The position numbers and the translations under genes are program-made. Below, one piece after another: positions 16,737-63,999 of a DNA stretch of 64,000 nucleotides. Each line of letters starts with the position of its first letter. The first letter of the stretch is position 1. Under the pieces are notes generated by a model. The model had not been told where the DNA came from. It ran no database searches and worked only from the letters and a program-made list of their open reading frames with translations. Origin of the DNA: a virus (lineage: Duplodnaviria > Caudoviricetes); the IMG/VR virus record IMGVR_UViG_3300028048_000039, positions 1 to 64,000 of that record; one strand, 5' to 3'.

Positions 16737-19700
16737 ATGGCTCAAAAAATTCTTCTTAAGAAAAGTAATGTAGTTGACAAACTGCCTACCAGTGCCGAGT
16801 TTGGCGAGGTGTTTGTCAATTATGCTTCAGGAAACGGCAAGTCCTTCCTTTCAACAAAGAAAAATGACGGTACTATCGCAACATTCCACGAAGACGCTTA
16901 TTTTAGCACTTTGAGTGGAAATGTGGCAACTTTGTCAGGAAGTGTTGTGAATAATTATTATACCAAGAGCAACATTGATGACCGTGACCAAGTAGTTGCT
17001 GCCGCATTGAATGATATAAACAGCGGTTTAACACACGTTGAAGACACATATGTTGCTTCTGCTGTTATGAGTTCATCGGCAAAGAATCCTTCAGTCACTA
17101 ATAATGTGCTTACTATCCCTACGGTAGCGGGAGAACGTGGTTACCAAGGACCACAAGGTCCAAAGGGAGATTTAGGAAATCAGGGCCCACAAGGCCCAAA
17201 GGGTGACTTGGGTAATCAGGGTCCGCAGGGTCCAAAGGGAGAACGTGGCTATCAAGGCCCACAAGGTCCAGTAGGACATCAAGGCCCACAGGGTCCAAAG
17301 GGCGACTTGGGTAATCAAGGTCCGCAGGGTCCAAAGGGAGATAGAGGTTTTCAAGGCCCACAAGGTATAGATGGTACACACGGTACTCACGGTAAGCAGG
17401 GTCCACAAGGCTCAAAGGGTGACTTGGGAAATCAAGGCCCACAGGGTCCAAAAGGAACTGACGGAACGCATGGAAAGCAGGGACCTCAAGGCCCGAAAGG
17501 AGAATTAGGAAGCCAAGGCCCACAAGGTCCGAAAGGTACTGACGGAACACACGGTACTCACGGAAAACAAGGACCACAAGGCCCGAAAGGAGATTTAGGC
17601 TATCAAGGTCCACAGGGTCCAAAGGGTACTGACGGAACTCACGGCAAACAAGGCCCACAAGGCCCACAGGGTCCACAAGGAAAAGACGGTACAAACGGAA
17701 CACACGGTAAGCAGGGTCCACAAGGCTCAAAGGGTGACTTGGGAAATCAAGGCCCACAGGGTCCAAAAGGAACTGACGGAACGCATGGAAAGCAGGGTCC
17801 ACAGGGACCTCAAGGCCCAAAGGGTGACAACGGTACTCACGGCAAGCAAGGCCCACAGGGTCCGAAAGGTGACTTGGGTAATCAGGGTCCGCAGGGTCCA
17901 AAGGGAGAATTAGGAAGTCAAGGTCCGCAAGGTCCAAAGGGTGACAGAGGTTTTCAAGGACCGAAGGCAACAACTGACGAGATAATCTCAGCACTTGGTA
18001 ATGAAAAGAATGTTGGATTATCAAGCACTTCTGGTAGTGGAAATGTTCTTAAAACTTATACAATTACACAGATAATTAATGGAACAGCGTCCACAGTAGG
18101 TACTATTGATATTCCAAAAGACCTTGTTGTGACAAGCGGTGAAGTTGTAAAGAATCCTACGGGACAACCTGCGGGTACATATCTTAAACTCACTATTGCA
18201 AATCAGGCAGAGTCTGTCTATATTAATGTAGAAGACCTCGCTGACGTTTATACAGCAGGAAGTGCTATTACTATAAGTGACACTAATGTTGTTGACGTTA
18301 AGTTACATTCAACTCCTAACGGACTTGAAAAGGTATCGGGAACAACTGGTGGTTTAAGAATTAGCCCAACCGCAACAATCAAGGCAGGTGCATTCAGTGG
18401 CGGAACAGTTAATGCAACAAGCGTTACTGCTACAGGAAATGTCGTTGGTGCAACAATCAAGGGCACAACCATCAGTGGAACAACAGTTACTGGCGGCACT
18501 ATCGGAGGAACAACCGTAAAGGGTACAACCATCAGTGGAACAACCGTTACTGGCGGTACGGTGGTAGGAACAACAGTTAGCGGAACAACCGTTAAAGCAC
18601 CAACAGTTTATGGTTCAACAGCAGTTTATTCTCCAACAGTATCGGGAACAAATGTAACCGCTACGGGTAATGTCAAAGGTAATGTGATAAGCGGTAATAC
18701 TATCTATGGTAACTTACCAAATTATTACACTAAGGATGTTATTGATGAAAATGAAGAGGTGACTTCAGCAGCATTAAATGCCTTGAATAATAATCTTAGT
18801 GCTGTTCAAGCAAGTTATGTATCTGCTGCAGTTATGAGTTCAACGGCACAGACTCCTTCTGTTACCAATAATGTTTTGACGATTCCGACTGTTGCGGGAG
18901 AACGTGGTTACCAAGGTCCACAAGGACCAAAGGGTACTAACGGTACAAACGGAACCAATGGTACTCATGGTAAGCAGGGGCCTCAAGGTCCACAGGGACC
19001 TCAGGGAGCAAATGGTTCCAACGGAACTAATGGTACCCATGGAAAACAGGGCCCACAAGGTGCTGCGGGTTCCAACGGTGCAAATGGTACGAATGGTAAG
19101 CAAGGTCCTCAGGGCGCTGCAGGCTCCAATGGAAGCAATGGTACACATGGTAAGCAAGGACCTCAAGGCCCACAAGGACCAAAGGGTACTAACGGAACTA
19201 ATGGTACTAATGGTACTCACGGAAAGCAAGGACCTCAAGGCCCTGCGGGACAAAATGCACTCAACGGAAATTATCTTCCATTGTCAGGTGGCACAATGAC
19301 AGGTAATATCTTGGAAGGCACAGCAAATGGCCATACGATTGGTAATACAACAAATGATTTCAAGGGTGTTTATGCAAGAACATTTGCATCAAATGCGGCA
19401 GGAAGTCTAACGACAAAAAGTGGAATGCAGGTAATCGCAGGTGTATCAAATGGCAGTGGTACTGCTACTACAGTAACAAGTGCTGCTACAATTATAATGA
19501 CATCTGTTGGTAACTCGACAACACTTAGAACTATGATAGCGGGTGTTGGTCCTGTAAATGGATATGCTCAGGCAGCAAATGGTTGGGTTACTGTAGGTAA
19601 CACAAGTTACAAGACAACAGTTTATGGCAATTCAGTTGAAGTTAATGGTAATGCGGGTACGATTGCAATTAAGAATACAGCAGGAAGTGCATTAGCACAA

Positions 19701-22181: not shown

Positions 22182-22982
22182 ATGGTAAAGAAGACATTGG
22201 TTTTTCATTTTTATGTAAAGGAAGACTTCGAGAATAATGTTGCAATGAAATTTCACCTTGCCATCTTGAAGCACTATGCAAATATCTTCGATAAGGTAAT
22301 TTTCTGTATATCAGTTGATAACTTAAACGATACGGAGTTAATTGCAAGGGCGGAACGTGCAATCTTGGATTGCGGATTCAAGAAGGAAATTCAGTTTATT
22401 CCCGTAGAAAACGATATGTACAGGGAAGCGGCAACATTCAAGTCACAGATATTGGATAAATTAAAAGATATTGAAGGAATTGTCTTCTTTGGACATGTAA
22501 AAGGTGTTACCAATGTAAATACATTTAGCCATCGGGCGGAACATTTCTTAAAGTGGATATTAGCACTCTATTTTTATTCTCTTGAGTTTGCGGATGAAGC
22601 AGAATTGAAACTTGTTGGCATTTATCAAGGGCTGAGAAGGACATTCTTCGGGCCGCTTTACACACTTAGTAAGGATGTGGGGATTGGTTGGTATCCAGGA
22701 ACGTTCTTTTGGCTTAATCCAAAGAAACTCTACAATGACATTCAGGAAGGAGTTTGCAAATTGACTGAGATTGATGACAGGGATTGGGTGGAATGTCTTC
22801 CTAGTATCTATAAGTATAATGACGGTTGGGGAAGATGTACAAGCCATAATGACGTTGTTATGTATGACGGAGTGATTGACTTGTATAAAGAATGTGATTG
22901 GGATTTCATAACAAACTTCTATGGAGAAAAAGATAAGTTTTTTGATTTGTATTATAAGTTGTATAATGAAATAAAAGATTAA
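22182..22982 (+). CDS. HxKG...GTF(F/Y)W family protein, paralog 4
   Basis: LVFHFY, FFGHVKG, YPGTFFWLN, RDWVECLP, SHNDV; TTTACT-N17-TATCTT upstream. Confidence 0.65.
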   Translation: MVKKTLVFHFYVKEDFENNVAMKFHLAILKHYANIFDKVIFCISVDNLNDTELIARAERAILDCGFKKEIQFIPVENDMYREAATFKSQILDKLKDIEGIVFFGHVKGVTNVNTFSHRAEHFLKWILALYFYSLEFADEAELKLVGIYQGLRRTFFGPLYTLSKDVGIGWYPGTFFWLNPKKLYNDIQEGVCKLTEIDDRDWVECLPSIYKYNDGWGRCTSHNDVVMYDGVIDLYKECDWDFITNFYGEKDKFFDLYYKLYNEIKD

Positions 22983-22986
22983 AAAT

Positions 22987-23988
22987 ATGAAGAATAGTAT
23001 TTTAATTACAGGAGTGGCGGGACTGCTCGGCTCACGAATGGCAGATTGGCTCGTAGAAAATCATCCAGAATTTGAAATAGTAGGAATTGATAATCTGTTT
23101 GGTGGGTATATGGAGAATGTAAATCCGAAGGTTGTGTTCTACAGAAGAGAACTTTCAACTGATAGATTGACTGATATATTTGATAAACACGACTTTAAAT
23201 ATGTATTCCATTTCGCAGCATATGCGGCAGAGGGACTTTCCCCATTTATGAGAATGTTCAATGACAGAAATAATATGCTTTCAACAGATAACATTATCAA
23301 TGAGTGTATTATGCACGATGTAAAGAGATTGATTTACACATCTTCAATGAGTGTCTATGGATGGGGAGTAAAGAAAGGCGTTGTCTTTGATGAGAATGAT
23401 ACCCCTGCGCCTATTGACCCTTACGCAGTATCAAAGTATGCCTGTGAAATGAATATCAAGATTGCAGGAGAGCAACACGGGCTTGATTGGTGTATCATCC
23501 GTCCTCATAATGTTGTTGGAAGAAAGCAGAATATTTGGGATAAATATCGTAACGTATTAGGTATTTGGATGTATCAGACGCTTAACAACAAACCAATGCT
23601 TATCTATGGTGACGGTGAGCAGACAAGGGCTTTCAGTGCGATTGATGACTGCCTTCAGCCGTTTTGGAACGCTGCGACATTTGATACAGCATCAAAGGAA
23701 ATCATCAATGTGGGCGGTATCTACCCTTACACTATTAATGAAGCGGCAAAGTTGCTCTGCAGCATTACTGGCTACGACAAGATAGAACATAAGGAAGCAA
23801 GACATGAAGTGAAATATGCCGTTCCAAAACCAGACAAGTCCATTCATCTTCTTGGCTTTGAGCAGAAGACTTCTCTCGAAGACTGCCTTAAGGATATGTG
23901 GGAATGGGCAAAGGAACAGCCAAATCGTCCACAGTATAAGTGGGAGAATTATGAAATAACAAAGGGACTTTATAGTTATTGGAAGTAA
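22987..23988 (+). CDS. NAD-dependent nucleotide-sugar epimerase/dehydratase (extended SDR)
   Basis: ITGVAGLLGS, IDNL, HFAAYA, TSSMSVYG, YAVSK (YxxxK), IYGDGEQTR. Confidence 0.9.
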   Translation: MKNSILITGVAGLLGSRMADWLVENHPEFEIVGIDNLFGGYMENVNPKVVFYRRELSTDRLTDIFDKHDFKYVFHFAAYAAEGLSPFMRMFNDRNNMLSTDNIINECIMHDVKRLIYTSSMSVYGWGVKKGVVFDENDTPAPIDPYAVSKYACEMNIKIAGEQHGLDWCIIRPHNVVGRKQNIWDKYRNVLGIWMYQTLNNKPMLIYGDGEQTRAFSAIDDCLQPFWNAATFDTASKEIINVGGIYPYTINEAAKLLCSITGYDKIEHKEARHEVKYAVPKPDKSIHLLGFEQKTSLEDCLKDMWEWAKEQPNRPQYKWENYEITKGLYSYWK

Positions 23989-23993
23989 AGTAT

Positions 23994-24758
23994 ATGGAAA
24001 TTTGTAAGAATAATGTAGATATTTTTATTTGCGCACACAAGCCATTTGATTGCAGCATAACCAATAAGCAATACAAGATTATCTGTGGCCCCAACGATGA
24101 CGTTGTATCATCAAATCTTGGGGTGATAAAAATTGCTCCTGAAATATCAAATGTTGGATTTAGTGAATGGCAAAAATTTTATTATGTTTGGAAACACATG
24201 GGGCTTAAAGATTATGTGGGACTGATGCATTACAGACGAATTTTGACTTTCGGTGATGATATAAATTATTTGCCTGACTTTGATGAATTATTTGAGAAGT
24301 ATGGCATGTTGATTGGCGATGTTGTAAGAGTAAGTAGTGTATGGCAAAATTATAAAAATTGCCATAATATCAAGGACCTTCAAGATACCAAAGAAATAAT
24401 AAATCAGTATTTTCCAGAATATAATGATGCCTTTAATACGGTTATGAATAGAAACGTAATGTTTATCTGTAATAATTGTGTTATGAAGAAAGACGACTTC
24501 CTGGAATTTTGTGATTTTCTGTTCGGTGTCTTGTTCAAATTCTGTGAGAGGAACGGAATTGACCCAGCGAGTGACCAGAGTTTCTATGACTACATAGACA
24601 AGGACATCCAAAACTACTCAAAGAGGCATAAGCCAGAGGACAGCACCTTCAGGGAACAGGCCAGGATTGGAGGCTTCCTTTCAGAGCGTCTTTTTAACGT
24701 CTGGGCAGCAAAGAAAGAACTGAGAATAAAAAGTTTTAAAATAAGAGATTGTAAATGA
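23994..24758 (+). CDS. DUF4422-type glycosyltransferase
   Basis: IFICAHK, FSE...YVWKH, YVGLMHYRR, CHNIKDL, GFLSERLFNVW. Confidence 0.8.
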   Translation: MEICKNNVDIFICAHKPFDCSITNKQYKIICGPNDDVVSSNLGVIKIAPEISNVGFSEWQKFYYVWKHMGLKDYVGLMHYRRILTFGDDINYLPDFDELFEKYGMLIGDVVRVSSVWQNYKNCHNIKDLQDTKEIINQYFPEYNDAFNTVMNRNVMFICNNCVMKKDDFLEFCDFLFGVLFKFCERNGIDPASDQSFYDYIDKDIQNYSKRHKPEDSTFREQARIGGFLSERLFNVWAAKKELRIKSFKIRDCK

Positions 24759-25501
24759 AGACTGTTGTTAGTAGAACTTGTGGGCAATTAGGGAATTTCA
24801 TGTTCCAAGTAGCAACCGGGAAGGCGTATGCTGAAAAGTATGGCGCTGATTTCTTTGTTCAGATAGCAGATTCAAGACTTCATAATTCGCAATTTGATTT
24901 TATTACTAAAAGATTTCCCCAAAAGGATAAAGTTGAGGGGGGATTGTGCAGAATTATGGAAAATAGTTCTTTTCCTGAAATAATGGAAGATAGGACTATG
25001 CTTTTTAGTGGATATTTTCAAAACGAAAAAAACTTTACCTCAGAACAAGCACTGAAATGGTTTGGAATGACGGATGATGATAAGAAAAGAATTCTTGAAA
25101 AGTATGGCGATTTATCTGATTGCGTAAGTATTAGTGTTAGACACAAAAATGATTATCGTAGACTTGCTCCACGAAAGGAATGGTATGGGGCCATTTATAA
25201 TAAGTATTTTAATGGACAGCGGGTGTTTATCACAGGTGATGACATGCAGTGGATAAAAGAAAACTTAAAGGACATACCAAATGCGATATTTTCTGAAGGT
25301 GGTTGTGTCGCTGATGACCTTTATGGGTGTTCTTTATGCAAGGACCATATAACTTATAATGGAACATTTGGATGGTGGGGTGCTTATCTTGGTGAGGAAA
25401 TGCGTATGAAAGAGGGAAAAGAAACAAAAGTTATTATAAGCGGAGATTGGGGTAAAGGAAGTCCCATAAGAGATGGGTGGATAATTGATAGTTTAGATTG
25501 A
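24755..25501 (+). CDS. GT11 (alpha-1,2-fucosyltransferase-like) glycosyltransferase
   Basis: GQLGNFMFQ, GYFQNEK, SVRHKNDY, TGDD..W, NGTFGWWGAYL. Confidence 0.8.
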   Translation: MKTVVSRTCGQLGNFMFQVATGKAYAEKYGADFFVQIADSRLHNSQFDFITKRFPQKDKVEGGLCRIMENSSFPEIMEDRTMLFSGYFQNEKNFTSEQALKWFGMTDDDKKRILEKYGDLSDCVSISVRHKNDYRRLAPRKEWYGAIYNKYFNGQRVFITGDDMQWIKENLKDIPNAIFSEGGCVADDLYGCSLCKDHITYNGTFGWWGAYLGEEMRMKEGKETKVIISGDWGKGSPIRDGWIIDSLD

Positions 25502-25545
25502 CTTTAGTGCTAAAAAATTGTATATTAGAAGAAAAAATTAATTTT

Positions 25546-28500
25546 ATGAGAACATTAGTTTGTGCTATTGCAAAGTTAGAGAACCTTTATATAAGGGAAT
25601 GGGTGGAATGGTATAAGGATAAGGGCTTTACCAATGTCTGCCTTTTTGATAATAATGATATTGATGGGGAAAGATTTGAAGAAGTAATTGGTGATTATAT
25701 TGAAAGCGGATTCGTATTCTTAAAGGACTTTCGTGGAAAGGAAAGAATGCAGAAACAGGCATATCAAATGTGCTACGATGAATATGGAAAGGATTATGAT
25801 TGGATTGGCTTCTTTGATATTGACGAGTTCTTTGATACAGATAAGAAGAATGTTTCCGAGTTTCTTTCACAGCCTAAGTTCAATGGTTTTGGTTCAATTC
25901 GCCTTTGTTGGAAAAACTATACCGACAATGGACTTCTTAGGGTGGAAAACGACAATTACTCAATAAAGAGATTTACCGAACCTGTTTATTTTGATACTAT
26001 TTGCAATAGACATTCTAAGATAATGGTTCGTGGCGGACAGGATATTAAATTCTCACAAGAACCAGGTGGCGAACACGGCGTAGGAATGAATTGTAATGCC
26101 GTTGATTGCCACGGAAATGTTTATGATAACAAGAGTTTTGTTCTTAAGGAGAAGATTTGGGATGATGCGTGGCTTAACCATTATCGCTTCAAGACAATGG
26201 AAGAATACTGTGTTCTCAAAATGAAGAGGCTTTACCCTTGTGTTGATGCCGCCGAAGCCAAGAGGATGTTGAGGAAGAAAGACTTCTTTGAGTACAATGA
26301 ATGGACTCCTGAGAAGGATAAGATGTACCACGAGTTGATGGGAGACGAATCAAACGCAGTTGTTTGTTGTATATTGAACTACAAACACGATGACGGTGCA
26401 AAGTTTTGGTATGATAGATGCAAGACAGAATTTAAGACATATATCATTGATACAAACTACCTTGATAACGGCGGCGAATGGCCATTTGATAAGAACGACC
26501 CTAATATCTTAAAGGAGCACAACCTTTATTATGGCGGCAGTGTCTTGAAATCATATGAGTTGCTGAAGAAAAACAACGGACAATGGTTGTTGACTATTAC
26601 TTCGGATGTGAAGTGTGATGCAGGAAATTCTCAAAGATTTGGCTATGTAATACAAGATATAATTAATAGGAAGGATATTGGCGTGTGGGACCCAAGTGCA
26701 GCACAAGGCTCGATGTGTAATGGTTCTACTCAAATAATATTATCCAATGTGCATCAATATAATCATAATTTTGGCGTTAGGGAAGTGAGATGTGGCGAAG
26801 GATGGCTCGAACTTGTCAGAGGCGATGTTTGTGATGAGTTGCTTCCTAAGTTGAATTATGACGACAATAAATTAGGATGGGGTATAAATGATGCGTTTAA
26901 TAGGATTTCAAGAAAAAAAGGGCTGAAGGTTGTTATTGACGATAGGCTTATAGTATTCCACCCAGGCGGCACGGCATATTCTCAGCAAGAAGCATCAAAG
27001 GAGTATGAAAGGTTGAAGTTGCGGTTTGCTGAATTTGGTATTACAGAACCCGAAGACAAGAAGGCGGAAGAAATCAAAACACTTATCTGCTGTATTGGAA
27101 AGAATGAGAATCGTTATGTAAGGGAATATGTTGAATGGTACAAGAAGATTGGCGTTACAAAGATTAGAATTTATGACAATAACGACCCTGATGGAGAACG
27201 TTTTGAAGACGTAATTGGAGATTATGTGAAAGATGGCTTTGTTGAAATTGTAGATTATAGGGGAAAGAAAGATTGTCAGCACGATGCTTATAATATCTGC
27301 TATGAAGAAGAAAAGAACAACTATGACTGGATACTTTTCATTGATTGTGGTGACGAATACCTCAGCTTTGTGCATACAAAGACCATTGGAGAATATCTTG
27401 CAATGCCACAGTTCGTTAATTTTGACATTATTCACATTAATCTTATGACATTTGGTGATTGTGGAAAGATTCATTATGAAGATAAACCATTGGCAGAAAG
27501 ATTCCCTAGTCCAATACCATTCGACACAAAGATAGCGTATGATTTCCCTGAAAATTGCCACGTTTCTTCAATAGTAAGAGGTGGAAAGGAAAAGGTTATC
27601 TTCAGTAAGGTAAGCGGCTGGAGCCATACTCCAAGTCCAACAACCCTTAGGTGTTGTAATGATGTGGGAATCACAGTAGATGGCAATTCCCCTGTTCAGA
27701 ATGTTGATTTCCAACTTGCGTTTTTCCGTCATTATACTACGAAGACGGCAGAAGAGTATTGCGACAAGATGAGAAGAGGATTCCCAGACCAAGAGTGGGA
27801 TGGTTCGAGAGTACAGAACCTCATTGAAACAAGATTTTTCAGAACCAATGAGATTACAAAGGAAAAAGTAGAAGTCTTTAAGGAGAAACTAGGTATTGAC
27901 ATGTCTTATCTCCTCCCACACGTCTTTGATGGCGAAAAGAATAAGGACGTGAAGATTTATACCCTTTGTTATGCAAAGAAAAACTTCCAGTTCCTTGACG
28001 ACGAAGTTGTAACTCCGCTTCAGGTTGGTGCAGCTAATGGTACTGATGTGTGTGTTTTAAAGGATAACACTGGTGATAATATTTCAGATAAAAACTATTT
28101 CTACATTGAGAATACTGGTACATATTGGATTTGGAAGAACGTTCATGATTGTAAATACAAGGGTCAGATGCAGTACAGAAGACCACTTCAAGGAGTTGAC
28201 GGAAAAATGGACTTTGAGGACATCTTCAGTAAGTATGATGTCATTACTTGTGAGCCATTCTATCATCCTGACCATAAGAAGCCAACTGAGACCGAAAAAT
28301 TGGTTATCGTTGCTGATACGGTAGAGCAAGGTTATGCTTTCAGTAATTGTGTTGATGACCTCTACGTTCTTGAAATGGTGATTAAGATGTTCCACCCTGA
28401 TTATGCCGAGGATTACGACAAGTACATCAAGAACGGTCCAAACCTTTATTATTCTAGTGGCTATATTATGAGAAGTGAGGATTATGATAGGTATTGTGAA

Positions 28501-28779
28501 TTCTTGTTCGATTGTCTTGAGAAGTGGCAGCAATTTGCTAACATTCATAGTAAGGAAGAATTATTTGCTCACGTTAAATATAATATGGAAGTGGGTAAGT
28601 ACCCTAGATATGGTGGGGACAAGAGCATCATAAATAATGAGGTGGCTGTTCGTTGGCAGAGTTCAATAGGCGGTTTCCTTGGTGAGAGAATATGGACCCT
28701 CTGGCTTCAGCATAACTTCCAGCAGGACAAGATTTACAAATTGCCTTACGTCAAGATGGAAGAAGGGATGTATACCTAG
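25546..28779 (+). CDS. Multidomain glycosyltransferase (GT2-like / GT-A-like / GT2-like / DUF4422)
   Basis: Two YxRE(W/Y)VEWY...(F/Y)DNND...YDW domains, a central DDNKLGWGIND domain, and C-terminal PLQVGA...DNTGDNISDKN..Y.E...QYRR...GERIW; TTGACT-N17-TATATT at 25498-25526. Confidence 0.85.
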   Translation: MRTLVCAIAKLENLYIREWVEWYKDKGFTNVCLFDNNDIDGERFEEVIGDYIESGFVFLKDFRGKERMQKQAYQMCYDEYGKDYDWIGFFDIDEFFDTDKKNVSEFLSQPKFNGFGSIRLCWKNYTDNGLLRVENDNYSIKRFTEPVYFDTICNRHSKIMVRGGQDIKFSQEPGGEHGVGMNCNAVDCHGNVYDNKSFVLKEKIWDDAWLNHYRFKTMEEYCVLKMKRLYPCVDAAEAKRMLRKKDFFEYNEWTPEKDKMYHELMGDESNAVVCCILNYKHDDGAKFWYDRCKTEFKTYIIDTNYLDNGGEWPFDKNDPNILKEHNLYYGGSVLKSYELLKKNNGQWLLTITSDVKCDAGNSQRFGYVIQDIINRKDIGVWDPSAAQGSMCNGSTQIILSNVHQYNHNFGVREVRCGEGWLELVRGDVCDELLPKLNYDDNKLGWGINDAFNRISRKKGLKVVIDDRLIVFHPGGTAYSQQEASKEYERLKLRFAEFGITEPEDKKAEEIKTLICCIGKNENRYVREYVEWYKKIGVTKIRIYDNNDPDGERFEDVIGDYVKDGFVEIVDYRGKKDCQHDAYNICYEEEKNNYDWILFIDCGDEYLSFVHTKTIGEYLAMPQFVNFDIIHINLMTFGDCGKIHYEDKPLAERFPSPIPFDTKIAYDFPENCHVSSIVRGGKEKVIFSKVSGWSHTPSPTTLRCCNDVGITVDGNSPVQNVDFQLAFFRHYTTKTAEEYCDKMRRGFPDQEWDGSRVQNLIETRFFRTNEITKEKVEVFKEKLGIDMSYLLPHVFDGEKNKDVKIYTLCYAKKNFQFLDDEVVTPLQVGAANGTDVCVLKDNTGDNISDKNYFYIENTGTYWIWKNVHDCKYKGQMQYRRPLQGVDGKMDFEDIFSKYDVITCEPFYHPDHKKPTETEKLVIVADTVEQGYAFSNCVDDLYVLEMVIKMFHPDYAEDYDKYIKNGPNLYYSSGYIMRSEDYDRYCEFLFDCLEKWQQFANIHSKEELFAHVKYNMEVGKYPRYGGDKSIINNEVAVRWQSSIGGFLGERIWTLWLQHNFQQDKIYKLPYVKMEEGMYT

Positions 28780-29862: not shown

Positions 29863-30255
29863 ATGGCATTAAAGCAGAAATATGGAATAAAGTACCCATT
29901 TTCAAATAACAATGAGGATGAAGTCTTTCTAGACCTTAATGAAAATGAAAATGAGAGCATAAAATCACAGGTTCTCCACGTAATTTTCACCCCAAAGGGT
30001 CAGAAATTGAGGGACCCAGACTTTGGGACAGACCTAGTTAAGTATATATTTGACCAGGGGGATGACACTGGCTTCAGTGACGTTAAAACCGAAATCACAA
30101 GACAAATCTCAAAATATGTTCCTTCAGTAGAGTTTAAAGATGTCACAATTTACCGTGAAGATGAGACAAATGGAAACGGGATTATTGTTATAATTGAATA
30201 TATGGTAAAAAGAGGAAATAAGGCCGAAAACGTAACGGTTTCATTAAAATTATAA
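29863..30255 (+). CDS. Baseplate wedge protein, T4 gp25-like
   Basis: GIKYPF, IFTPKGQKLRDPDFGTDLVKYIFD, KYVPSV. Confidence 0.85.
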   Translation: MALKQKYGIKYPFSNNNEDEVFLDLNENENESIKSQVLHVIFTPKGQKLRDPDFGTDLVKYIFDQGDDTGFSDVKTEITRQISKYVPSVEFKDVTIYREDETNGNGIIVIIEYMVKRGNKAENVTVSLKL

Positions 30256-30261
30256 AAGAAT

Positions 30262-46324: not shown

Positions 46325-46325
46325 A

Positions 46326-50764: not shown

Positions 50765-50784
50765 GTAGAGAAAAATGTTTCATA

Positions 50785-53265
50785 ATGGGAAGAATCGTCG
50801 TAAATAAACACACAAATGTACCTTCAGGGATAACAAGCGACAGTTTTGTTAATCTTGGTGAGATTGTAATATCCAACTTAAAAGGGGAGGAAGAGATTTA
50901 TATCAAAAACAACGAAAATGAGGTTGTTGGTATTACAGATAGGGTAACAGAGCAGATAACCAATCTTAGTGGTGATGTTGTAAGCAATTATTACACAAAG
51001 GGGGAGGTTGATGATTTAGATGCCGCCATCAGTAGCGACGCAAATTCATATACAGATGAGCAAATAACAAATCTTAGTGGTGGTGTTGTAAATAATTATT
51101 ATACAAAGGAGGAGGTAGACCAGACAACTCAAGATATTTTTACCAATGCATGTAATTATACAGATTTACAAGTAGGAAATCTTAGTGGTTCTGTAAATAC
51201 CTTATCTAGCGCCACAATTGCATTCAGTGCAGAAACGGTTGCTGAATTTGAAAATCTTGAATACCTTATTTCAATGCTCTCAGGTTCTTCTTCCGCATCT
51301 TATGAGAGTCTTATTGCCTTAATAACCGATATCAGTGGGCAAACAAGGGATAATACAACAGACATTTCAACATTATCGGGCTCAGTTTTCTCCTTTAGTG
51401 GTGTAATAGTCAATAATTATTGGACTTCTGCAGAGACAGAAGGTGTGATTTCAGATGCCCTAACAGACGCAAAGGATTATACAGACGGCTCTCTTTCAGC
51501 ATTCAGTGCCGCTATAATCACTTATTCCGATGACAATGACGATGCCATCAATGACAAGATAGACAAATTCAGTGCAAATGTGGTTGCCAATTATTCAACT
51601 TCCGCAGATACCGAAGATGCATTGAATACAGCAAAAGATTATACCGATAGTTCAATTTCAGCATTGAGTGCGTCGGTAATAGGTTACACAGACAATTCCA
51701 TTAGCGGATTAAGCGGTTCAGTTCTTTCCTATGTAGACGAAAAAGACAGTGATATTAACGACAGAATAGACGATACCAATGACGCATTAGAAGAGTTAAG
51801 CGGTTCGGTTGTTACAAAGTATGCAACATCAGCAGATACCGTAAGTGCGATTACCGATGCTCTGTCTGACGCAAAAGATTATACCGATGAAAAGGTTGGC
51901 GATTTATCAGGAAATGTCGTAACTACGATTTCGGGCTTCTCAGGTGACGTTAAAAACTACATAGATGGAAGGTTATCCAGGGTTTATAGATTCAAGGGGA
52001 GCGTTCAGAGGTTTGAAGACCTCCCTAATGATGTTGAGGATGGTGATGTTTATAATGTCATTCAAGAGCATGTAGTCAGTGGCGGAACAGTAATACCTGG
52101 CGGAACAAATTATGCATGGAATGAAAATGATTCCAAATGGGATGAACTCGGAGGTACTATAGACCTTTCAGGCTATGTAACTAAGAATGAACTTAGCGCC
52201 GACCTTGAAGAAATGGAAGGTGAAATTTCAGCCATTTCAGCAACTGTCATTACTGTTAGTGGAAACATCATTACTGAAATCAATACATTATCTTCAAACA
52301 CTCACAATGAGATTGAAAGTGCTAAGACCGATTTAATGGGATACGTCAATGAAGTAAGCGGTGATGTTACAAGCAAGTTATATGAACTTTCTTCCACAAC
52401 AGAGACATTTAGCGGAAATGTTGTTTCTGAACTTGCAACATTGTCTTCTAACACCCATAGCGAAATAGAAGCCGCAAAGGAGACATTAAGCGGAGACATT
52501 CAGACAGTAAGCGGGAATGTTATCAATTTGTCGGCGGGTACTGAAGAAGCAATTTCCGAAGCGATTACCGAAAGCAAGGATTATACCGATGAGAAGATAA
52601 GTGGTACAACAAGCGATTTATCTGAATTATCGGGAACAGTAGCAACGTTAAGCGGTGCGGTTATTGACAATTATGCCACATCTGCTGATACTGTTAGTGC
52701 GGTTACTAACGCTTTGGCTAACGCTAATGATTATACTGATGAAAAGGTTAGTGGAGTTACTGATAATGTTAGTGAGTTGTCTGGCAGCGTTGAGACGTTT
52801 AGCGGAAATGTTGTTTCTGCAATAGACAATACCCTTACCGAGAGCAAAGAATATACTAACACAAAGGTTAGTGGCGTTACTGATAATGTTAGTGAGTTAT
52901 CAGGAAGTGTCATTGCCCTTTCAGCAGGTACCGAAGAAAAGATTGATAGTGCCATTACTGAAAGCGAAGGATATACTGATGAGAAGATTGAATCTCTCTC
53001 AGCAAATACTGAAAATGCAATTGCAAGTGCCATTACCCAGGCAAACGAACACACTGATAGTGTGGCAGAAGTGATTACAACGGCATTGTCAGCGGTTTCA
53101 GCAACAGCAATTACTGCAATACAAGATATCCAATTTGCCAAGTTAGAAAGTGGTTATACGGTAACTTATGGAAATATAAAAATAAAGAGAGAAAATAACA
53201 TTGTTACTATTGATTTAAGTGAAATGGATATAGTAGGTAATAGGGAAGATGACGATTATGAGTAA
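50785..53265 (+). CDS. Coiled-coil fibre protein with dense Ser-Gly/Ser-Ala repeats
   Basis: AKDYTD repeats, about 30 SG dipeptides, VYRFKGSV...GDVYNV...GTNYAW...WDELGG knob. Confidence 0.75.
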   Translation: MGRIVVNKHTNVPSGITSDSFVNLGEIVISNLKGEEEIYIKNNENEVVGITDRVTEQITNLSGDVVSNYYTKGEVDDLDAAISSDANSYTDEQITNLSGGVVNNYYTKEEVDQTTQDIFTNACNYTDLQVGNLSGSVNTLSSATIAFSAETVAEFENLEYLISMLSGSSSASYESLIALITDISGQTRDNTTDISTLSGSVFSFSGVIVNNYWTSAETEGVISDALTDAKDYTDGSLSAFSAAIITYSDDNDDAINDKIDKFSANVVANYSTSADTEDALNTAKDYTDSSISALSASVIGYTDNSISGLSGSVLSYVDEKDSDINDRIDDTNDALEELSGSVVTKYATSADTVSAITDALSDAKDYTDEKVGDLSGNVVTTISGFSGDVKNYIDGRLSRVYRFKGSVQRFEDLPNDVEDGDVYNVIQEHVVSGGTVIPGGTNYAWNENDSKWDELGGTIDLSGYVTKNELSADLEEMEGEISAISATVITVSGNIITEINTLSSNTHNEIESAKTDLMGYVNEVSGDVTSKLYELSSTTETFSGNVVSELATLSSNTHSEIEAAKETLSGDIQTVSGNVINLSAGTEEAISEAITESKDYTDEKISGTTSDLSELSGTVATLSGAVIDNYATSADTVSAVTNALANANDYTDEKVSGVTDNVSELSGSVETFSGNVVSAIDNTLTESKEYTNTKVSGVTDNVSELSGSVIALSAGTEEKIDSAITESEGYTDEKIESLSANTENAIASAITQANEHTDSVAEVITTALSAVSATAITAIQDIQFAKLESGYTVTYGNIKIKRENNIVTIDLSEMDIVGNREDDDYE

Positions 53266-53665: not shown

Positions 53666-53671
53666 AAAAAG

Positions 53672-53700
53672 AAGCCGCAGGAATTAACCCACGGCTTTTT
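53672..53700. terminator. Bidirectional terminator
   Basis: AAGCCGCAGG-AATTAA-CCCACGGCTT between convergent genes. Confidence 0.7.
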
Positions 53701-53702
53701 CA

Positions 53703-54197
53703 TTACTCCTGAGCTTTCTTACTCTTCTTCTTAGCTTTCCTCGCCTCAGCTTCCTCTTTTCTCTTGTCCTCAATCTGAGCCATTACATACTGTCCGAGAA
53801 GCGCCATATTAACAGCCTCTTCCTTATACTTTTCGTAGTATCCAACAGGTATGGTTATTTGTGGACAACCAATTACAAGTTTGTCCTTCTCAGTATCATA
53901 AGATACCTTTTCCATTTCCATTCTCAGCCAAGCACGTTTAGCCTTCTCATCAGCAAATGGATGACCCTCAGCGTCAGAACCCTCAAATGCATCGAGGTAA
54001 CAAAGAATGAATACAAGGTCCTCCCTGTTTGAAGCATACTCAGCCAATTCATTAGCCTTAATAATCTTGCAAGGCTCCTTTGCTCTATTTACGAAGAGTG
54101 GCTGGAAGTCAACTCCATAATTTACGAGATTAAGCTCGTTAGCAATGTCATTTACCATGTTTTCCACTTCCTCAGAAGCAGGTGAATATTTTGCCAT
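53703..54197 (-). CDS. Hypothetical protein (weak resemblance to phage metallopeptidase-like fold, no HE motif)
   Basis: 164-aa ORF; TTGTTT-N17-TATATT upstream (54269-54241). Confidence 0.45.
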   Translation of the reverse strand: MAKYSPASEEVENMVNDIANELNLVNYGVDFQPLFVNRAKEPCKIIKANELAEYASNREDLVFILCYLDAFEGSDAEGHPFADEKAKRAWLRMEMEKVSYDTEKDKLVIGCPQITIPVGYYEKYKEEAVNMALLGQYVMAQIEDKRKEEAEARKAKKKSKKAQE

Positions 54198-54309
54198 ATT
54201 AATAATGTTTTATTTAGATTATTTTTTTTTATTTTTTGCTAATATACAAAAAGTTTTTCAAAAAAACAACTTGACAAAGAAATATACCTTTATTATATTA
54301 TATACAAAG

Positions 54310-55287: not shown

Positions 55288-55429
55288 AAAAATTTTCAAT
55301 CATGAAAAATTATATTATTTTTTAATTTGTCCTAGTTTCTTAATAAATGTTTCTTATTTTAACGATTTAGACAACATATTATTCAGAATACTAAGGATTT
55401 AATTTCAATCATCCATTTTTATTTTTCAG

Positions 55430-55476
55430 AAAAGTCGTGCTTCGGTACGGCTTTTTCTTTTTTCCCCACTATTTAT
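55430..55476 (+). terminator. Terminator with cUUCGg loop, followed by ACTATTTAT (55468-55476)
   Basis: AAAGTCGTGC-TTCG-GTACGGCTTT + T run. Confidence 0.8.
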
Positions 55477-55592
55477 TAACGATTAAAATTGAACAAAATT
55501 AAAATAATTTTTATATGCCGTGCTGTATAGCAATTATACGGTTTGTTCTATAACGTTAAAGAATAATAATAAAAAGTAATGTAATTTAAATT

Positions 55593-58280
55593 ATGGCAAA
55601 AAGTAAAACAAGCCCGGATAGGCAAATGCTTGTCCATCTTAACGGTACAACGCAGATGACCGACCAGGACGTTAATAAATTGGCGTTAGGCGAAATCGCA
55701 GTGAACCATGGCGTGAAACCAGAACTCTACACTGTTTATACAGACAGTGCAAACACAGAGCACATTGCAAGATTTGTTGATGAGGCTGCTGTTGATGCAA
55801 AAATTGCTAACCTTAATATTGAACAGTATGCATTGTCCGCAACTGTTGAAGGATATCAAGCAGAAAATGACAGGAGATTAGATGCCCTTGAAGCAATTTC
55901 AGGCCAATCTCATACACATGAAAATAAAGCCCTTCTTGACACTTATACTCAGACCGAGGCTGACTTGGCTGACGCAGTTGCTAAGAAGCACGAACATGCA
56001 AACATGGAAGTCCTCACAGGTATTACCGCTGAGAAGGTGAGCGCATGGGATGCTGCTGAGCAGAACGCAAAAAACTATACAGATACTGAGGTTGCAGCCG
56101 CTTCAGGAAATGCAATCACCTCAGCAAATTCTTATACTGATGCTGCAAAGGCAGAGGTAATTGGTCAGACAGGAGACACCGCAACCGCAAATACCATCTA
56201 TGGTGCAAAGGCTTATGCTGAAAGTATCGTTGAATCTTCAATAACCGCAGCAACCGGAGACACCTTGGTTATTGCAAGCGCAGATGGCAAAACTATTAAA
56301 GTAGGCGCTTCAGAAGATTTATCTGACGCAGTTGCTAAGAAGCACGAACATGCAAACATGGAAGTCCTCACAGGTATTACCGCTGAGAAGGTGAGCGCAT
56401 GGGATGCTGCTGAGCAGAACGCAAAAGACTATACTGATGATGCACTTAATGCATACTACACTTCAGCACAGACTGACACCAAGATAGCAAATGCATCAGG
56501 AAATGCAATCACTTCGGCAAATTCTTATACTGATACCGCTAAGTCTGAACTTATCGGTGATATGACAGGTGATACTAAGACTCTTGGTGCATTGCAGGAT
56601 GCAATTGAGGCTCTTGATAGTAAAGCGGTGGTAACTGTTGAGAAATTAGGAACTCCTTCTTCTTCCGCTTATGCAGCAAGTTATGTTGTTAAACAGAACG
56701 GTGTACAAGTAGGTACTGCAATTGACATTCCTAAGGATTACTTGGTAAAGAGTGCAACTATTGAAGTATGTCAAACTGCTGACACTCCTGTCGCTGGACT
56801 TCAGCCAGGTGACAAGTACATTGACTTTGTAGTTAATGCAAAGGATGGGCAAGGTGAAGAAAGCCATATTTATCTTCCAATTGCTGACCTTGCACACGTT
56901 TATAAGGCTGGTAATGGTATTAATATTGATAATTCTGATGTTATAAGCGCAGTTGTTGATACTAACAATGCTAATGGACTTTCAGTAGGCGCTAATGGTA
57001 TTGCAATGGCACTTGCAACTTCTGGTGCTTCTGGTGCTATGAGCGCTGCTGACAAGGCTAAACTTGATGGTATTGCAAGTGGTGCTCAGGCAAACGTTAT
57101 CGAAACAGTTAAAGTTAATGGTACTGACCTTACAGTAACAGATAAGGCTGTTGACATTACAATGCCAACCAAACTTACAGACCTTACAAATGACGGTAAT
57201 TTTGTACAGGATGCAAGTTATGTACACACAGATAACAACTATACTACAGCAGAAAAGGAGAAACTTGCTGCCATCGAAGCTGATGCTGACGTAAACGTTA
57301 TCGAAGGTGTTCAGGTAAATGGTGATGACCTTACTCCTGATGCAAGCAAGAAGGTTAATGTAACTATTGCAGAAGGTACTGCTAATGGAACAATTAAAGT
57401 TAATGGTACAGATGTTAATGTTCATGGACTTGGAAGCGCAGCATATAGTGCCGCAACTGATTTTGACCTCGCAGGTGCTGCTGCTGACGCAAAGGCAGAG
57501 GTAATTGGTCAGTCAGGAGATGCCTCAACCGCAGATACCATCTATGGTGCTAAGGCTTATGCTGAAAGTCTTGTTGATGAGAAGAACGTTACAGCAAGCG
57601 GTGATAGCTATGTTTCAGCAACTGCAAGCAATAACCATGTTGTTGTTGCTGCTACAACCGGTACAGTATCTGCAGGACAGGATGTTCTTGCAACTGCAAG
57701 TGACGTTAAATCTTATGTTGGTACTGTAAGTGGAAACATTGAGAGTGCTATCACCAACGAAATAACTGCACGCACACAGGCTGACGAAGCACTTGATGCA
57801 AGAATTGATGCCCTTGAAGCAATTTCAGGCCAGACACAGAGTGCTCTTCAGGGTATAGACCATGGTACTGATGGCGATTATGTAACAACTACTGTTGGAG
57901 CCAAAGACTCAAATAACCATCAGAGTGTTGGCGTTGCGGTAACGGTTGTTGCTGTATCTGCCGCAACTGGTACCAACAAGGGTCTTGCAGAAGCAAGCGA
58001 CGTTAAGGCTTATGTTGACGATGCTGTTTCAGGTAAAAATGTTGAAGCAAGTGGTGATAACACTTACATTAATGCAAGTGCCAATAACAATGCAGTTTCT
58101 GTTTCAGCAATAACTACCACTCTTACAGGAACATCTGAGGGTATCGTTACTGCAGCAGAAATCAGAACCTTGGTTCGTGGCGTGGATACTACTGACCAAA
58201 ATCATTCAGCAAATGTTCAAGTCACTAGCGACAAGAAACTTGATTTCAGCAATATGATTATCGACTGCGGAACTTATTAA
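55593..58280 (+). CDS. Virion fibre protein with internal repeats
   Basis: LALGEIAVNH N-terminus, KKHEHAN repeats, SAADKAKLDGI, ANVIETVKVNG, C-terminal IIDCGTY. Confidence 0.8.
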   Translation: MAKSKTSPDRQMLVHLNGTTQMTDQDVNKLALGEIAVNHGVKPELYTVYTDSANTEHIARFVDEAAVDAKIANLNIEQYALSATVEGYQAENDRRLDALEAISGQSHTHENKALLDTYTQTEADLADAVAKKHEHANMEVLTGITAEKVSAWDAAEQNAKNYTDTEVAAASGNAITSANSYTDAAKAEVIGQTGDTATANTIYGAKAYAESIVESSITAATGDTLVIASADGKTIKVGASEDLSDAVAKKHEHANMEVLTGITAEKVSAWDAAEQNAKDYTDDALNAYYTSAQTDTKIANASGNAITSANSYTDTAKSELIGDMTGDTKTLGALQDAIEALDSKAVVTVEKLGTPSSSAYAASYVVKQNGVQVGTAIDIPKDYLVKSATIEVCQTADTPVAGLQPGDKYIDFVVNAKDGQGEESHIYLPIADLAHVYKAGNGINIDNSDVISAVVDTNNANGLSVGANGIAMALATSGASGAMSAADKAKLDGIASGAQANVIETVKVNGTDLTVTDKAVDITMPTKLTDLTNDGNFVQDASYVHTDNNYTTAEKEKLAAIEADADVNVIEGVQVNGDDLTPDASKKVNVTIAEGTANGTIKVNGTDVNVHGLGSAAYSAATDFDLAGAAADAKAEVIGQSGDASTADTIYGAKAYAESLVDEKNVTASGDSYVSATASNNHVVVAATTGTVSAGQDVLATASDVKSYVGTVSGNIESAITNEITARTQADEALDARIDALEAISGQTQSALQGIDHGTDGDYVTTTVGAKDSNNHQSVGVAVTVVAVSAATGTNKGLAEASDVKAYVDDAVSGKNVEASGDNTYINASANNNAVSVSAITTTLTGTSEGIVTAAEIRTLVRGVDTTDQNHSANVQVTSDKKLDFSNMIIDCGTY
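55969..56426. repeat. 104-bp perfect direct repeat (55969-56072, 56323-56426) inside the fibre gene
   Basis: CTGACGCAGTTGCTAAGAAG...CAGAACGCAAAA identical at both sites. Confidence 0.9.

Positions 58281-63999: not shown

What the first reader, a model, noticed from the sequence alone, without database searches (positions are those of the whole stretch)
16737..63999. Hydrophobic-Ser-Gly/Ala motif recurs across unrelated structural proteins: candidate glycosylation sequon
Seen: ORF 50785 has about 30 Ser-Gly dipeptides by my count, nearly all as (L/I/V/F)-S-G-x-(V/T/I), plus many (L/T/F/V)-S-A-x-T. It otherwise looks coiled-coil, where Gly is disfavoured. The motif recurs in non-homologous virion proteins: 16737 ([18 protein letters not shown]), 40889 (ISGVN, VSGGT, VSGDV, VSGNT, YSGDT), 42926 (YSGET twice, VSGST), 46326 (ISGSTDVSGTT, LSGTSGT), 49295 (FSGIT, VSGTL, LSGRV), 55593 (ISGQT, ASGNA, VSGNI), and one knob of the 61243 collagen (AISGTT). 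It looks rare in Ugd, the GTs, NrdG and primase. Inference: a convergent acceptor sequon for the phage GTs. Ser-Gly in acidic context is also the eukaryotic proteoglycan attachment motif, but that is only an analogy.
Basis: partly seen in the sequence, partly recalled or inferred. Interest (0 to 1): 0.85.

Follow-up and report, generated by a model that had tools for sequence, protein, structure and literature searches.

The report
Ser-Gly motif on jumbo-phage tail fibres
The outer tail and fibre proteins of this uncultured 345-kb gut or rumen phage carry the short pattern hydrophobic-Ser-Gly/Ala-x-Thr/Val far more often than chance, and among related phages the excess is seen only where a particular sugar-transferase gene is present, so it may be a sugar-attachment signal, but no chemistry shows this.

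Summary
In ORF 50785, hS[GA]x[TV] occurs 31 times against 0.9 expected. Ser-Gly is the most enriched of 400 dipeptides both in the coiled-coil fibres (z 10.4) and in the non-coiled proteins 40889/42926/46326 (z 5.4). It is at background in the rest of the genome, and Gly-Ser is never enriched.

The motif is Ser-specific and flank-specific, and Asn-Gly and Asp-Gly show no such flanks. Tail proteins of other gut phages lack it.

It sits in two main settings:
- Heptads of a shared rod module, with Ser at position e/b and Gly/Ala at f/c. These rods are homologous, not convergent.
- Beta-hairpin tips of globular distal proteins, where sites turn over between orthologues.

The phage carries about 13 glycosyltransferase domains. 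One GT2 is closest to GmaR/SunS. A GT92-like plus DUF4422 (WbbM-like) gene sits next to the baseplate genes.

Across relatives, fibre blocks are Ser-Gly-rich in DUF4422-positive records (1.57x, n=28) and not in near-complete records without it (0.96x, n=7). This is confounded by phylogeny, and four records are exceptions.

My verdict is that an O-glycosylation acceptor is the leading reading (about 0.4) but is unproven, and a structural idiom is a close rival. This scan has noted similar [S/T]-G-x-T claims before, on other phage DNA.

The parts
50785..53265 (+). 826-aa trimeric coiled-coil fibre. It has an N-terminal anchor, rods built of LS[GA]xV heptads and units of about 36 residues ending in AKxYTD, a central beta domain (about residues 397-466) and a C-terminal knob.
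   Evidence: It has 30 SG against 7.4 expected and 31 motifs against 0.9. Hydrophobic periodicity is 3.6, with h at d/a, Ser at e/b and Gly/Ala at f/c. The AF2 monomer is mostly helix. The trimer model of residues 600-826 scores 0.72 against 0.00 for the best control. Ser is nearly invariant in the family alignment.
40889..42919 (+). 676-aa distal baseplate or fibre protein, beta-rich. The ORF as listed starts at 40820.
   Evidence: It has 11 SG against 3.0 expected (P 3e-4). In the AF2 model (pLDDT 82), SG at 108, 150, 165 and 367 lies at two-residue hairpin turns and the other SG sites lie in loops. In homologues, SG columns exchange with DG/NG/SD/ND.
42926..45457 (+). 843-aa distal tail protein of no known family.
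   Evidence: It has 8 SG against 3.8 expected. Its orthologue in L001 has 15 against 4.9, and only 5 columns are shared.
46326..49268 (+). 980-aa distal tail protein of no known family.
   Evidence: It has 11 SG against 4.7 expected and 3 GS. Six of 13 SG columns are shared with the L001 orthologue.
49295..50692 (+). 465-aa fibre protein with a coiled-coil middle part and a C-terminal six-residue beta repeat (IWLSGT IHMSGT).
   Evidence: It has 11 SG against 4.3 expected. Its L001 orthologue has 14 against 3.8.
55593..58280 (+). 895-aa fibre with the same N-terminal anchor type and rod units that resemble the stalks of trimeric autotransporter adhesins (..SGNAITSANSYTD..).
   Evidence: It has 12 SG against 4.9 expected, 1 GS and 22 SA. 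It weakly matches the profile built from alignment A1.
16737..20201 (+). 1154-aa collagen-like fibre. Its N-terminus carries the anchor plus the unit [20 protein letters not shown], and residues 570-660 form a 10-residue beta repeat ([10 protein letters not shown]).
   Evidence: It matches Pfam Collagen at 9e-61. It has 10 motifs against 0.7 expected, while SG alone is 19 against 14.2. The sequence was read.
25498..28779 (+). 1093-aa multi-domain glycosyltransferase with two GT92-like/GT2_4 domains and a C-terminal DUF4422 domain. It lies directly upstream of the baseplate genes.
   Evidence: It matches Pfam PF13704/PF01697 and PF14393. Its DUF4422 part matches WbbM (6u4b) at 9e-16. The same gene lies next to the baseplate block in many relatives (coordinates).
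6085..7584 (-). 499-aa GT2 of the type that glycosylates proteins or peptides.
   Evidence: It matches PF00535. Its only solved relatives are GmaR (4e-18), a ThuS-like enzyme (7msk) and SunS.
1792..15597 (.). Accessory sugar island: Ugd (1792-2982), GT92-like (5343-6119), GT2 (7581-8819), DUF4422 (8800-9606) and GT92-like (13877-14719, 14722-15597).
   Evidence: Pfam scans.
22182..25501 (+). Sugar genes inside the late structural gene string: an unknown family (22182), an NAD epimerase/dehydratase (22987-23988), DUF4422 (23979-24758) and GT11-like (24755-25501).
   Evidence: All genes from 16737 to 58280 are on the + strand with short gaps.
29863..32166 (+). Baseplate wedge genes (gp25-like at 29863-30255, gp6-like at 30262-32166) that mark the start of the tail module.
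   Evidence: PHROGs phrog_261/43 and phrog_219.

Best explanation
The pattern hydrophobic-Ser-(Gly/Ala)-x-(Thr/Val/Ile) is a lineage-specific motif that selection maintains on the distal tail and fibre proteins. Its most likely role is as the acceptor site for O-glycosylation of Ser by phage-encoded cytoplasmic glycosyltransferases expressed with the tail genes.

The conserved candidate enzyme is the GT92-like plus DUF4422 (WbbM-like) protein next to the baseplate genes. In this phage the GmaR/SunS-like GT2 and about ten further transferase domains could prime or extend the glycan.

Shown here:
- the enrichment and its specificity for Ser and for its flanks;
- its position in models at hairpin tips and at heptad positions e/b;
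- the turnover of sites between orthologues;
- the transferase repertoire and its synteny with the tail genes;
- the raw co-occurrence with DUF4422 among relatives.

Inferred only:
- that any virion protein is glycosylated;
- that Ser of the motif is the acceptor;
- which enzyme initiates.

The heptad copies in the rods may be mainly structural even if the loop copies are acceptors.
For: **Specificity.**
- In 40820/42926/46326, h-X-G-x-[TVI] counts are S 11/0.7, T 0/0.8, N 1/0.7 and D 0/0.9.
- Ser-Gly has a hydrophobic residue at -1 in 60% of cases and T/V/I at +3 in 57%, while NG and DG show no such flanks.

**The fold does not require it.**
- Orthologous fibre blocks in G006, G007, G026 and G010 rank Ser-Gly 162-342 of 400. 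In G002, G001, G024, G003, G005, G015 and G013 it ranks 1-4.
- Tail proteins of other gut phages show 1.24x with no flank bias.

**Turnover.** Between this phage and a 350-kb relative (47-69% identity), both sides are enriched but only 2/13, 5/18, 6/13 and 6/19 Ser-Gly columns are shared.

**Exposure.**
- The sites lie at hairpin tips in the AF2 model.
- In the trimer model (score 0.72, best control 0.00, partner pLDDT at least 73) the hydrophobic residue is in the core, Ser(e) at the rim, and Ser(b) and Gly outside the interface.

**Enzymes.**
- The GT2 is closest to GmaR/SunS.
- Sugar genes lie inside the late structural gene string.
- The multi-domain transferase adjoins the baseplate block in many relatives.
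- In relative L001 the sugar genes directly follow the fibre genes.

**Co-variation.**
- DUF4422-positive records: SG 1245/793 and motif 175/51 (n=28).
- DUF4422-negative records at least 75% complete: SG 167/174 and motif 15/11 (n=7). Mann-Whitney p 5e-4.
- NG+DG and GS do not differ between the groups.
- Whole genomes G007, G006 and G026 have no Ser-Gly-enriched gene of note.

**Precedent.** TibC heptosylates Ser-313 (NSGG) and Ser-322 (TSAAV) of TibA, and Ser only (PMC4358343).
Against: - No glycan or mass data exist.
- The co-variation is phylogenetically shallow. The DUF4422 state changes about five times on the tree, and the independent-pairs test is not significant.
- Four DUF4422-positive records have no enrichment: G010, G012, G023 and L026. 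G013 has the full syntenic set of transferases but only 1.7x.
- The GmaR-like GT2 family (PF00535) does not track the motif. It is absent from the motif-rich G001, G002 and G004 and present in motif-poor relatives.
- WbbM-like and GT92-like enzymes are known, from my own knowledge, as glycan-extending enzymes rather than protein-priming ones.
- Most copies lie in rod heptads, where Ser at e touches the neighbouring chain in the model. A sugar there could disturb the trimer.
- Those rod copies are inherited as a module with a nearly invariant Ser, which a structural role explains equally well.
- In globular proteins Ser-Gly exchanges with the ordinary turn pairs DG, NG and ND.
Confidence: 0.42

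Rival explanations
1. The motif is a structural idiom with no modification. In the rods, Ser at e followed by a small residue at f belongs to an inherited heptad module that resembles the stalks of trimeric autotransporter adhesins. In the globular proteins, Ser-Gly is this lineage's preferred tight-turn pair between beta strands. The sugar genes then serve another purpose, such as modifying the host surface, DNA or another target.
For: - The rod motif is conserved family-wide, with Ser in 36-40 of about 42 homologues and Gly exchanging with Ala.
- Heptad register and 3.6 periodicity fit a coiled coil, and the trimer model supports it.
- One homologue, P0059, carries PF05662 YadA_stalk.
- Hairpin-tip sites exchange with DG/NG/ND in homologues.
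- In the 40820 family NG is enriched as much as SG, both at 2.0x.
- Ser-Ala variants occur only in helices and Ser-Gly only in turns.
- Some transferase-positive relatives lack enrichment.
Against: - The same protein families in other lineages have Ser-Gly at or below expectation, so the fold does not need it.
- NG and DG turns in the same proteins lack the flanks.
- New sites keep appearing at non-homologous positions in both lineages compared.
- The same pentapeptide appears in helical, beta-repeat and hairpin settings.
- Tail proteins of other gut phages do not show it.
Confidence: 0.33
2. The motif is read by something other than a glycosyltransferase. It could be the site of another Ser modification or the target of a fibre-assembly chaperone. 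Alternatively it could form Ser/Gly/Tyr-rich recognition loops that bind host surface polysaccharide.
For: - Turnover with maintained density and strict Ser and flank specificity point to recognition of the sequence itself.
- Several sites are Tyr-Ser-Gly at predicted loop tips.
I did not test it.
Against: - No candidate reader other than the transferases was found near the fibre genes.
- The raw link to DUF4422 is not predicted by this reading.
- Rod heptads are unlikely receptor-binding loops.
Confidence: 0.15
3. The excess is an artefact of composition, internal repeats or DNA-level repeats.
For: Many copies in ORF 50785 and 16737 arise from tandem repeat units, so the number of independent events is much smaller than the count.
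Against: - Expectations were corrected for composition and checked by shuffling.
- Gly-Ser is not enriched.
- The non-repetitive proteins 40889, 42926 and 46326 show the motif at 11 against 0.7.
- Ser uses both AGY (61%) and TCN (39%) codons, and Gly uses all four codons.
Confidence: 0.02

Closest known systems
Bacterial autotransporter heptosyltransferases TibC/AAH acting on TibA/AIDA-I (PMC4358343)
   Same: A cytoplasmic enzyme hyper-glycosylates a repetitive surface fibre-like protein encoded nearby. The acceptors are Ser only, in short loops with Ser-Gly or Ser-Ala followed by small and Val residues (Ser-313 NSGGAV and Ser-322 TSAAV).
   Different: No GT9/BAHT homologue exists in this phage (PF01075). 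The substrates here are phage tail proteins and partly alpha-helical rods rather than a beta-helix. Nothing is shown chemically.
Mycobacteriophage virion glycosylation by phage-encoded glycosyltransferases (Freeman et al. 2023, as cited in PMC12619734)
   Same: Phage-encoded transferases decorate virion proteins in the infected cell.
   Different: There the glycans sit at the C-termini of capsid and tail-tube subunits. Here the candidate sites are internal, on distal tail and fibre proteins, with a defined pentapeptide and different transferase families.
GmaR (Listeria flagellin O-GlcNAc transferase) and SunS/ThuS peptide glycosyltransferases
   Same: The GT-A domain of ORF 6085-7584 is most similar to these enzymes (4e-18 to 1e-7). 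Their targets are helical or filamentous proteins and peptides.
   Different: The C-terminal 280 residues are unmatched. Homologues are missing from several motif-rich relatives.
Coiled-coil stalks of trimeric autotransporter adhesins (YadA_stalk) and coiled-coil phage fibres
   Same: Parallel trimeric coiled coil with heptads and recurring ..AKxYTD.. units. One homologue carries PF05662.
   Different: The window's own protein has no significant Pfam stalk match. A nearly invariant Ser-Gly/Ala after the d residue is not a described stalk feature, as far as I know.

Membership tests
BAHT-type Ser O-heptosylation system (TibC/AAH) | A GT9-like or BAHT enzyme is encoded by the element | tested here: not met
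   PF01075 finds nothing in the 344.6-kb genome at E<=0.1.
BAHT-type Ser O-heptosylation system (TibC/AAH) | Ser-only acceptors in short Ser-Gly or Ser-Ala loops between beta strands | tested here: inconclusive
   The sequence pattern and its predicted hairpin-tip position fit. Modification itself cannot be tested with these tools.
Phage virion glycosylation (mycobacteriophage type) | Phage-encoded glycosyltransferases beside structural genes | tested here: met
   About 13 transferase domains were found. The multi-domain transferase and GT11/DUF4422/epimerase genes lie inside the structural gene string.
Phage virion glycosylation (mycobacteriophage type) | Glycan present on virion proteins | not testable with these tools
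   This needs mass spectrometry or glycan staining of virions or co-expressed proteins.
Phage virion glycosylation (mycobacteriophage type) | Acceptor sites at the C-termini of capsid and tail-tube subunits | tested here: not met
   The motif is internal and confined to distal tail and fibre proteins. The rest of the genome is at background.
GmaR/SunS-type GT2 protein glycosyltransferases | GT-A domain most similar to known protein or peptide glycosyltransferases | tested here: met
   The only hits to solved structures are GmaR 4e-18, 7msk 1e-10 and SunS 1e-7.
GmaR/SunS-type GT2 protein glycosyltransferases | The enzyme is conserved together with its proposed acceptor motif | tested here: not met
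   PF00535 is absent from the motif-rich G001, G002 and G004 and present in the motif-poor G006, G008, G009 and G010. A homologue was found in G013 only.
Trimeric alpha-helical coiled-coil fibre | Heptad periodicity with hydrophobic residues at a and d | tested here: met
   Periodicity is 3.6 in both rods. The motif's hydrophobic residue sits at d in 26 cases and at a in 4, out of 33.
Trimeric alpha-helical coiled-coil fibre | Parallel in-register trimer | tested here: met
   The three-copy model of residues 600-826 scores 0.72 against 0.00 for the best of three controls. Runs agree in at least 71% of contacts and partner pLDDT is at least 73. The tool's mark was reached by 20 of 30 solved pairs and 1 of 23 single chains. 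This is a model, not a measurement.
Eukaryotic proteoglycan Ser-Gly xylosylation | Acidic residues around Ser-Gly, often in repeated Ser-Gly runs | tested here: not met
   The flanks are hydrophobic at -1 and Thr/Val/Ile at +3. Acidic residues are only weakly raised at -1 to -3.

The most novel reading that the evidence does not exclude
Giant gut and rumen phages coat their tail fibres with sugars using a short Ser-Gly/Ala-x-Thr/Val code. The code would be read by a conserved GT92-like plus WbbM-like transferase encoded inside the tail gene module, with sites gained and lost at exposed loops much like the glycan shields of animal viruses. Earlier notes of this scan describe similar [S/T]-G-x-T excesses in unrelated huge phages, so the code could be widespread.
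Probability: 0.35. Interest if true: 0.85.

Novelty: new variant of a known kind. Interest (0 to 1): 0.62.

Why it matters
Virion glycosylation is documented for only a few phages, and no sequence signal is known for it. A defined acceptor motif on receptor-binding fibres would have three consequences:
- Glycosylated phage proteins could be predicted from sequence.
- It would explain why huge phages carry large sugar-gene islands next to tail genes.
- It would bear on host recognition, protease resistance and immune visibility of gut phages.

Even if the motif turns out to be structural, it is a sharp lineage marker of one fibre module, and an unusual one (an invariant Ser-small pair after the d position of a trimeric coil).

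Tried and rejected
- **CrAss-like and other phages as controls without sugar-transferase genes.** They share only the central beta domain of the 50785 fibre and have no LS[GA]xV rods, so they give no test.
- **Nucleotide search.** Megablast of 40-60 kb against phage records found nothing.
- **Family and structure searches for the distal proteins.** Pfam and PHROGs gave no family for 40820, 42926, 46326 or 49295. Sequence search of solved structures found no relative for the two fibres. Foldseek of the 40889 model gave no match at E<=0.001.
- **Single-protein locus search in IMG/VR.** It found nothing. The alignment-based search worked.
- **GT2 (PF00535), GT1 (PF00534) and GT2_4 (PF13704) as co-varying families.** PF00535 shows no link, PF00534 is rare, and PF13704 is weaker than DUF4422.
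- **DNA hypermodification as the target of the transferases.** The only thymidylate-synthase-family gene scores 321 bits and so looks like an ordinary ThyA. The sugar genes sit in the late structural gene string. This reading is not excluded.
- **UDP-galactopyranose mutase.** None is in the genome, so the WbbM likeness does not identify the sugar.
- **Avoidance of deamidation-prone Asn-Gly.** I considered and dropped it, because NG and DG remain enriched in the same proteins.
Full report
**Setting.** The window is the first 64 kb of a 344,580-bp virus record. Earlier notes of this scan describe it as an uncultured rumen or gut phage of Bacteroidota; I did not test the host. Genes from 16737 to 58280 all lie on the + strand. 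The order is:
- a collagen-like fibre (16737; Pfam Collagen 9e-61);
- an unknown 593-aa protein;
- a block of sugar genes (22182-28779);
- baseplate wedge genes (gp25-like at 29863 and gp6-like at 30262);
- very large baseplate proteins (32386, 38182);
- the distal proteins named in the finding.

**Observation.** A greedy ORF set of 374 genes was scored against composition and against shuffles.
- ORF 50734/50785 has 30 Ser-Gly against 7.4 expected, 9 Gly-Ser, and 31 copies of [LIVFY]S[GA]x[TV] against 0.9.
- Eight genes have P(SG)<0.01. Six of them lie between 40 and 66 kb. A seventh (114419) is a paralogue of 50785.
- Ser-Gly ranks first of 400 dipeptides in the coiled-coil fibres (68 against 20.8, z 10.4). 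It also ranks first in the non-repetitive proteins 40820/42926/46326 (30 against 11.6, z 5.4).
- In the other 356 ORFs it ranks 168 (z 0.3). Gly-Ser is never enriched.
- The large inner baseplate proteins and all sugar genes are at background.

The excess is real. It is directional and confined to distal tail proteins.

**Specificity.**
- In the three globular proteins, Ser-Gly is preceded by L/I/V/F/Y in 60% of cases and has T/V/I at +3 in 57%. Both occur together in 37%, against about 6% expected. Asn-Gly and Asp-Gly in the same proteins show no such flanks.
- With the flanks fixed, the counts are Ser 11/0.7, Thr 0/0.8, Asn 1/0.7 and Asp 0/0.9.
- After Ser, only Gly is enriched in the globular set. 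Gly (41/1.3) and Ala (17/1.8) are both enriched in the rods.
- Thr at +3 is 5-7 times over-represented in the globular set and in its orthologues.
- Ser uses both codon families (AGY 61%, TCN 39%) and Gly uses all four codons. The signal is therefore at the protein level.

**Structural settings.**

*Rods.*
- The 826-aa fibre has a hydrophobic periodicity of 3.6. The motif's hydrophobic residue sits at d in 26 cases and at a in 4. Ser sits at e (25) or b (5), and Gly/Ala at f or c.
- AF2 predicts mostly helix with low confidence, plus a confident central beta domain.
- A three-copy model of residues 600-826 gives a parallel in-register trimer. It scores 0.72 against 0.00 for the best of three controls, the runs agree in at least 71% of contacts, and partner pLDDT is at least 73. 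The tool's mark was reached by 20 of 30 solved pairs and 1 of 23 single chains.
- In that model the hydrophobic residues are core. Ser at e touches a neighbouring chain in two of three copies. Ser at b and all motif Gly are outside the listed interface.
- In the family alignment (mean identity 30%), Ser of the well-aligned units is nearly invariant (40/42, 38/42, 36/36) and Gly alternates with Ala.
- ORFs 16737, 55593, 114419 and 49295 carry the same anchor or rod units. They share a module.

*Short beta repeats.* These occur in 16737 ([10 protein letters not shown]) and at the end of 49295.

*Globular proteins.*
- The AF2 model of the 40889 protein (pLDDT 82) places Ser-Gly at 108, 150, 165 and 367 in two-residue turns between strands. 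The other sites lie in loops or at a helix end.
- In homologues these columns hold DG, NG, SD and ND.

**Is it a general fibre property?** No.
- 104 non-redundant proteins of at least 300 aa were taken from around tail-fibre genes of other gut phages. They show Ser-Gly at 1.24x and no flank bias.
- Orthologous fibre blocks of some related jumbo phages are at or below expectation.

**Turnover.** A 350-kb relative (L001) has orthologues at 47-69% identity. They are also enriched (15/4.9, 14/3.8, 15/4.0). Only 2 of 13, 5 of 18, 6 of 13 and 6 of 19 Ser-Gly columns are shared. Across 120 homologues of the 40889 protein, Ser-Gly totals 696 against 309 expected and Gly-Ser 257. In the 48-row alignment only one or two columns are widely conserved.

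**Sugar genes.**
- Pfam finds Ugd, two GT2, five GT92-like/GT2_4 domains, three DUF4422, a GT11-like protein and an epimerase.
- The GT2 at 6085-7584 has only GmaR, a ThuS-like enzyme and SunS as solved relatives.
- The DUF4422 part of the 1093-aa protein matches WbbM.
- This multi-domain gene lies directly upstream of the baseplate genes here. By coordinates it does so in many relatives too.
- In L001 the sugar genes directly follow the fibre genes.
- No GT9/BAHT enzyme and no UDP-galactopyranose mutase are present.

**Co-variation.** I took 80 IMG/VR loci around homologues of the 40889 protein and scored Ser-Gly in ORFs of at least 400 aa within 10 kb either side.
- PF00535 does not track the motif.
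- DUF4422 does. In 28 positive records Ser-Gly is 1245 against 793 and the motif 175 against 51. In the 7 negative records that are at least 75% complete, Ser-Gly is 167 against 174 and the motif 15 against 11. Mann-Whitney p is 5e-4.
- NG+DG and Gly-Ser do not differ between the groups.

Whole genomes fetched for nine records agree in part:

| Record | DUF4422 | Motif, observed/expected |
|---|---|---|
| This phage (G000) | positive | 4.7x |
| G002 | positive | 2.7x |
| G013 | positive | 1.7x |
| G023 | positive | 1.5x |
| G010 | positive | 1.1x |
| G019 | negative | 1.6x |
| G026 | negative | 1.4x |
| G007 | negative | 1.3x |
| G006 | negative | 1.1x |

G007 is complete with terminal repeats, and none of the four transferase families searched in it (PF00535, PF13704, PF00534, PF14393) was found. 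It has no Ser-Gly-enriched gene at all.

On a tree of the 40889 family the DUF4422 state changes only about five times. The independent-pairs test cannot reach significance. The link therefore rests on about two motif-rich clades, one contrasting sister (G007) and four exceptions (G010, G012, G023, L026).

**Weighing.**

For a sequence that something reads:
- strict Ser and flank specificity;
- the same pentapeptide in three structural settings;
- gain of new sites in both lineages compared;
- absence from the same folds in other lineages.

- the tail-linked transferase gene;
- the protein-type GT2;
- a raw co-occurrence that looks necessary but not sufficient;
- the TibC precedent, in which Ser-313 (NSGG) and Ser-322 (TSAAV) of TibA carry heptose and Thr does not (PMC4358343).

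Against:
- no chemistry;
- shallow phylogenetic support;
- exceptions among the relatives;
- no conserved priming enzyme identified;
- the awkward position of Ser at the rim of the trimer in the rods, where the invariant Ser-small pair could simply be structural.

I put the acceptor reading at about 0.42, a purely structural idiom at 0.33, another reader at 0.15, and artefact at 0.02. The library searches found no paper describing such a motif in phages.

**Relation to earlier notes of this scan.** A word search returned several AI notes on other genomes. They claim [S/T]-G-x-T, T-x-S-G or Ser/Thr-Gly excesses on outer proteins of unrelated huge phages next to transferases. I did not test them. 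They are leads, not support. If they hold, the pattern recurs across lineages.

Noticed in passing
window 51970-52180 (residues about 397-466 of the 50785 protein): A compact beta domain (VY.FKGSV...GDVYNV...WD.LGG.IDLS.Y, pLDDT about 90) is shared with tail proteins of many crAss-like phages, Enterocloster phages and a virus assigned to Methanomassiliicoccales. The flanking rods are not shared.
   Followed up: partly
window 25498-28779, and relatives G005, G011-G016, G030, G036-G053: A multi-domain GT92-like plus DUF4422 glycosyltransferase gene is a conserved neighbour of the baseplate genes across many related contigs. In the 410-kb clade the same domains occur as a smaller fused or adjacent pair far from the tail genes.
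   Followed up: partly
L001:11701-20825: In a 350-kb relative the sugar genes (unknown family, two epimerases, GT8, multi-domain GT92/DUF4422 transferase) lie directly after the fibre genes and before the primase. This is a different arrangement from the window's.
   Followed up: no
window 40820-40889 and 50734-50785: The longest ORFs start upstream of the likely true starts. Database homologues begin at the ATG at 40889 (676 aa), and the fibre family begins MARxxx at the ATG at 50785.
   Followed up: partly
fibre-block genes, window 40820-58280: Ser in Ser-Gly uses AGY codons in 61% of cases, against 39% for other Ser in the same genes. This would fit origin of some sites from Asn-Gly or Gly-Gly by single transitions.
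   Followed up: no
G000:C1:78460-79446 (outside the window): A canonical-looking thymidylate synthase domain (321 bits) sits in a 503-aa ORF, which suggests a fusion with another domain.
   Followed up: no
G019:C1:203464-206901: A 1145-aa protein in a relative has 46 Ser-Gly and 46 Gly-Ser. It is a low-complexity Ser/Gly repeat of a different kind from the directional motif studied here.
   Followed up: no
window 61243-64494 (- strand): The collagen-like protein runs beyond the window end (1083 aa in the genome). Its C-terminal 440 residues are 58% identical to another gene at 240682-242241.
   Followed up: no
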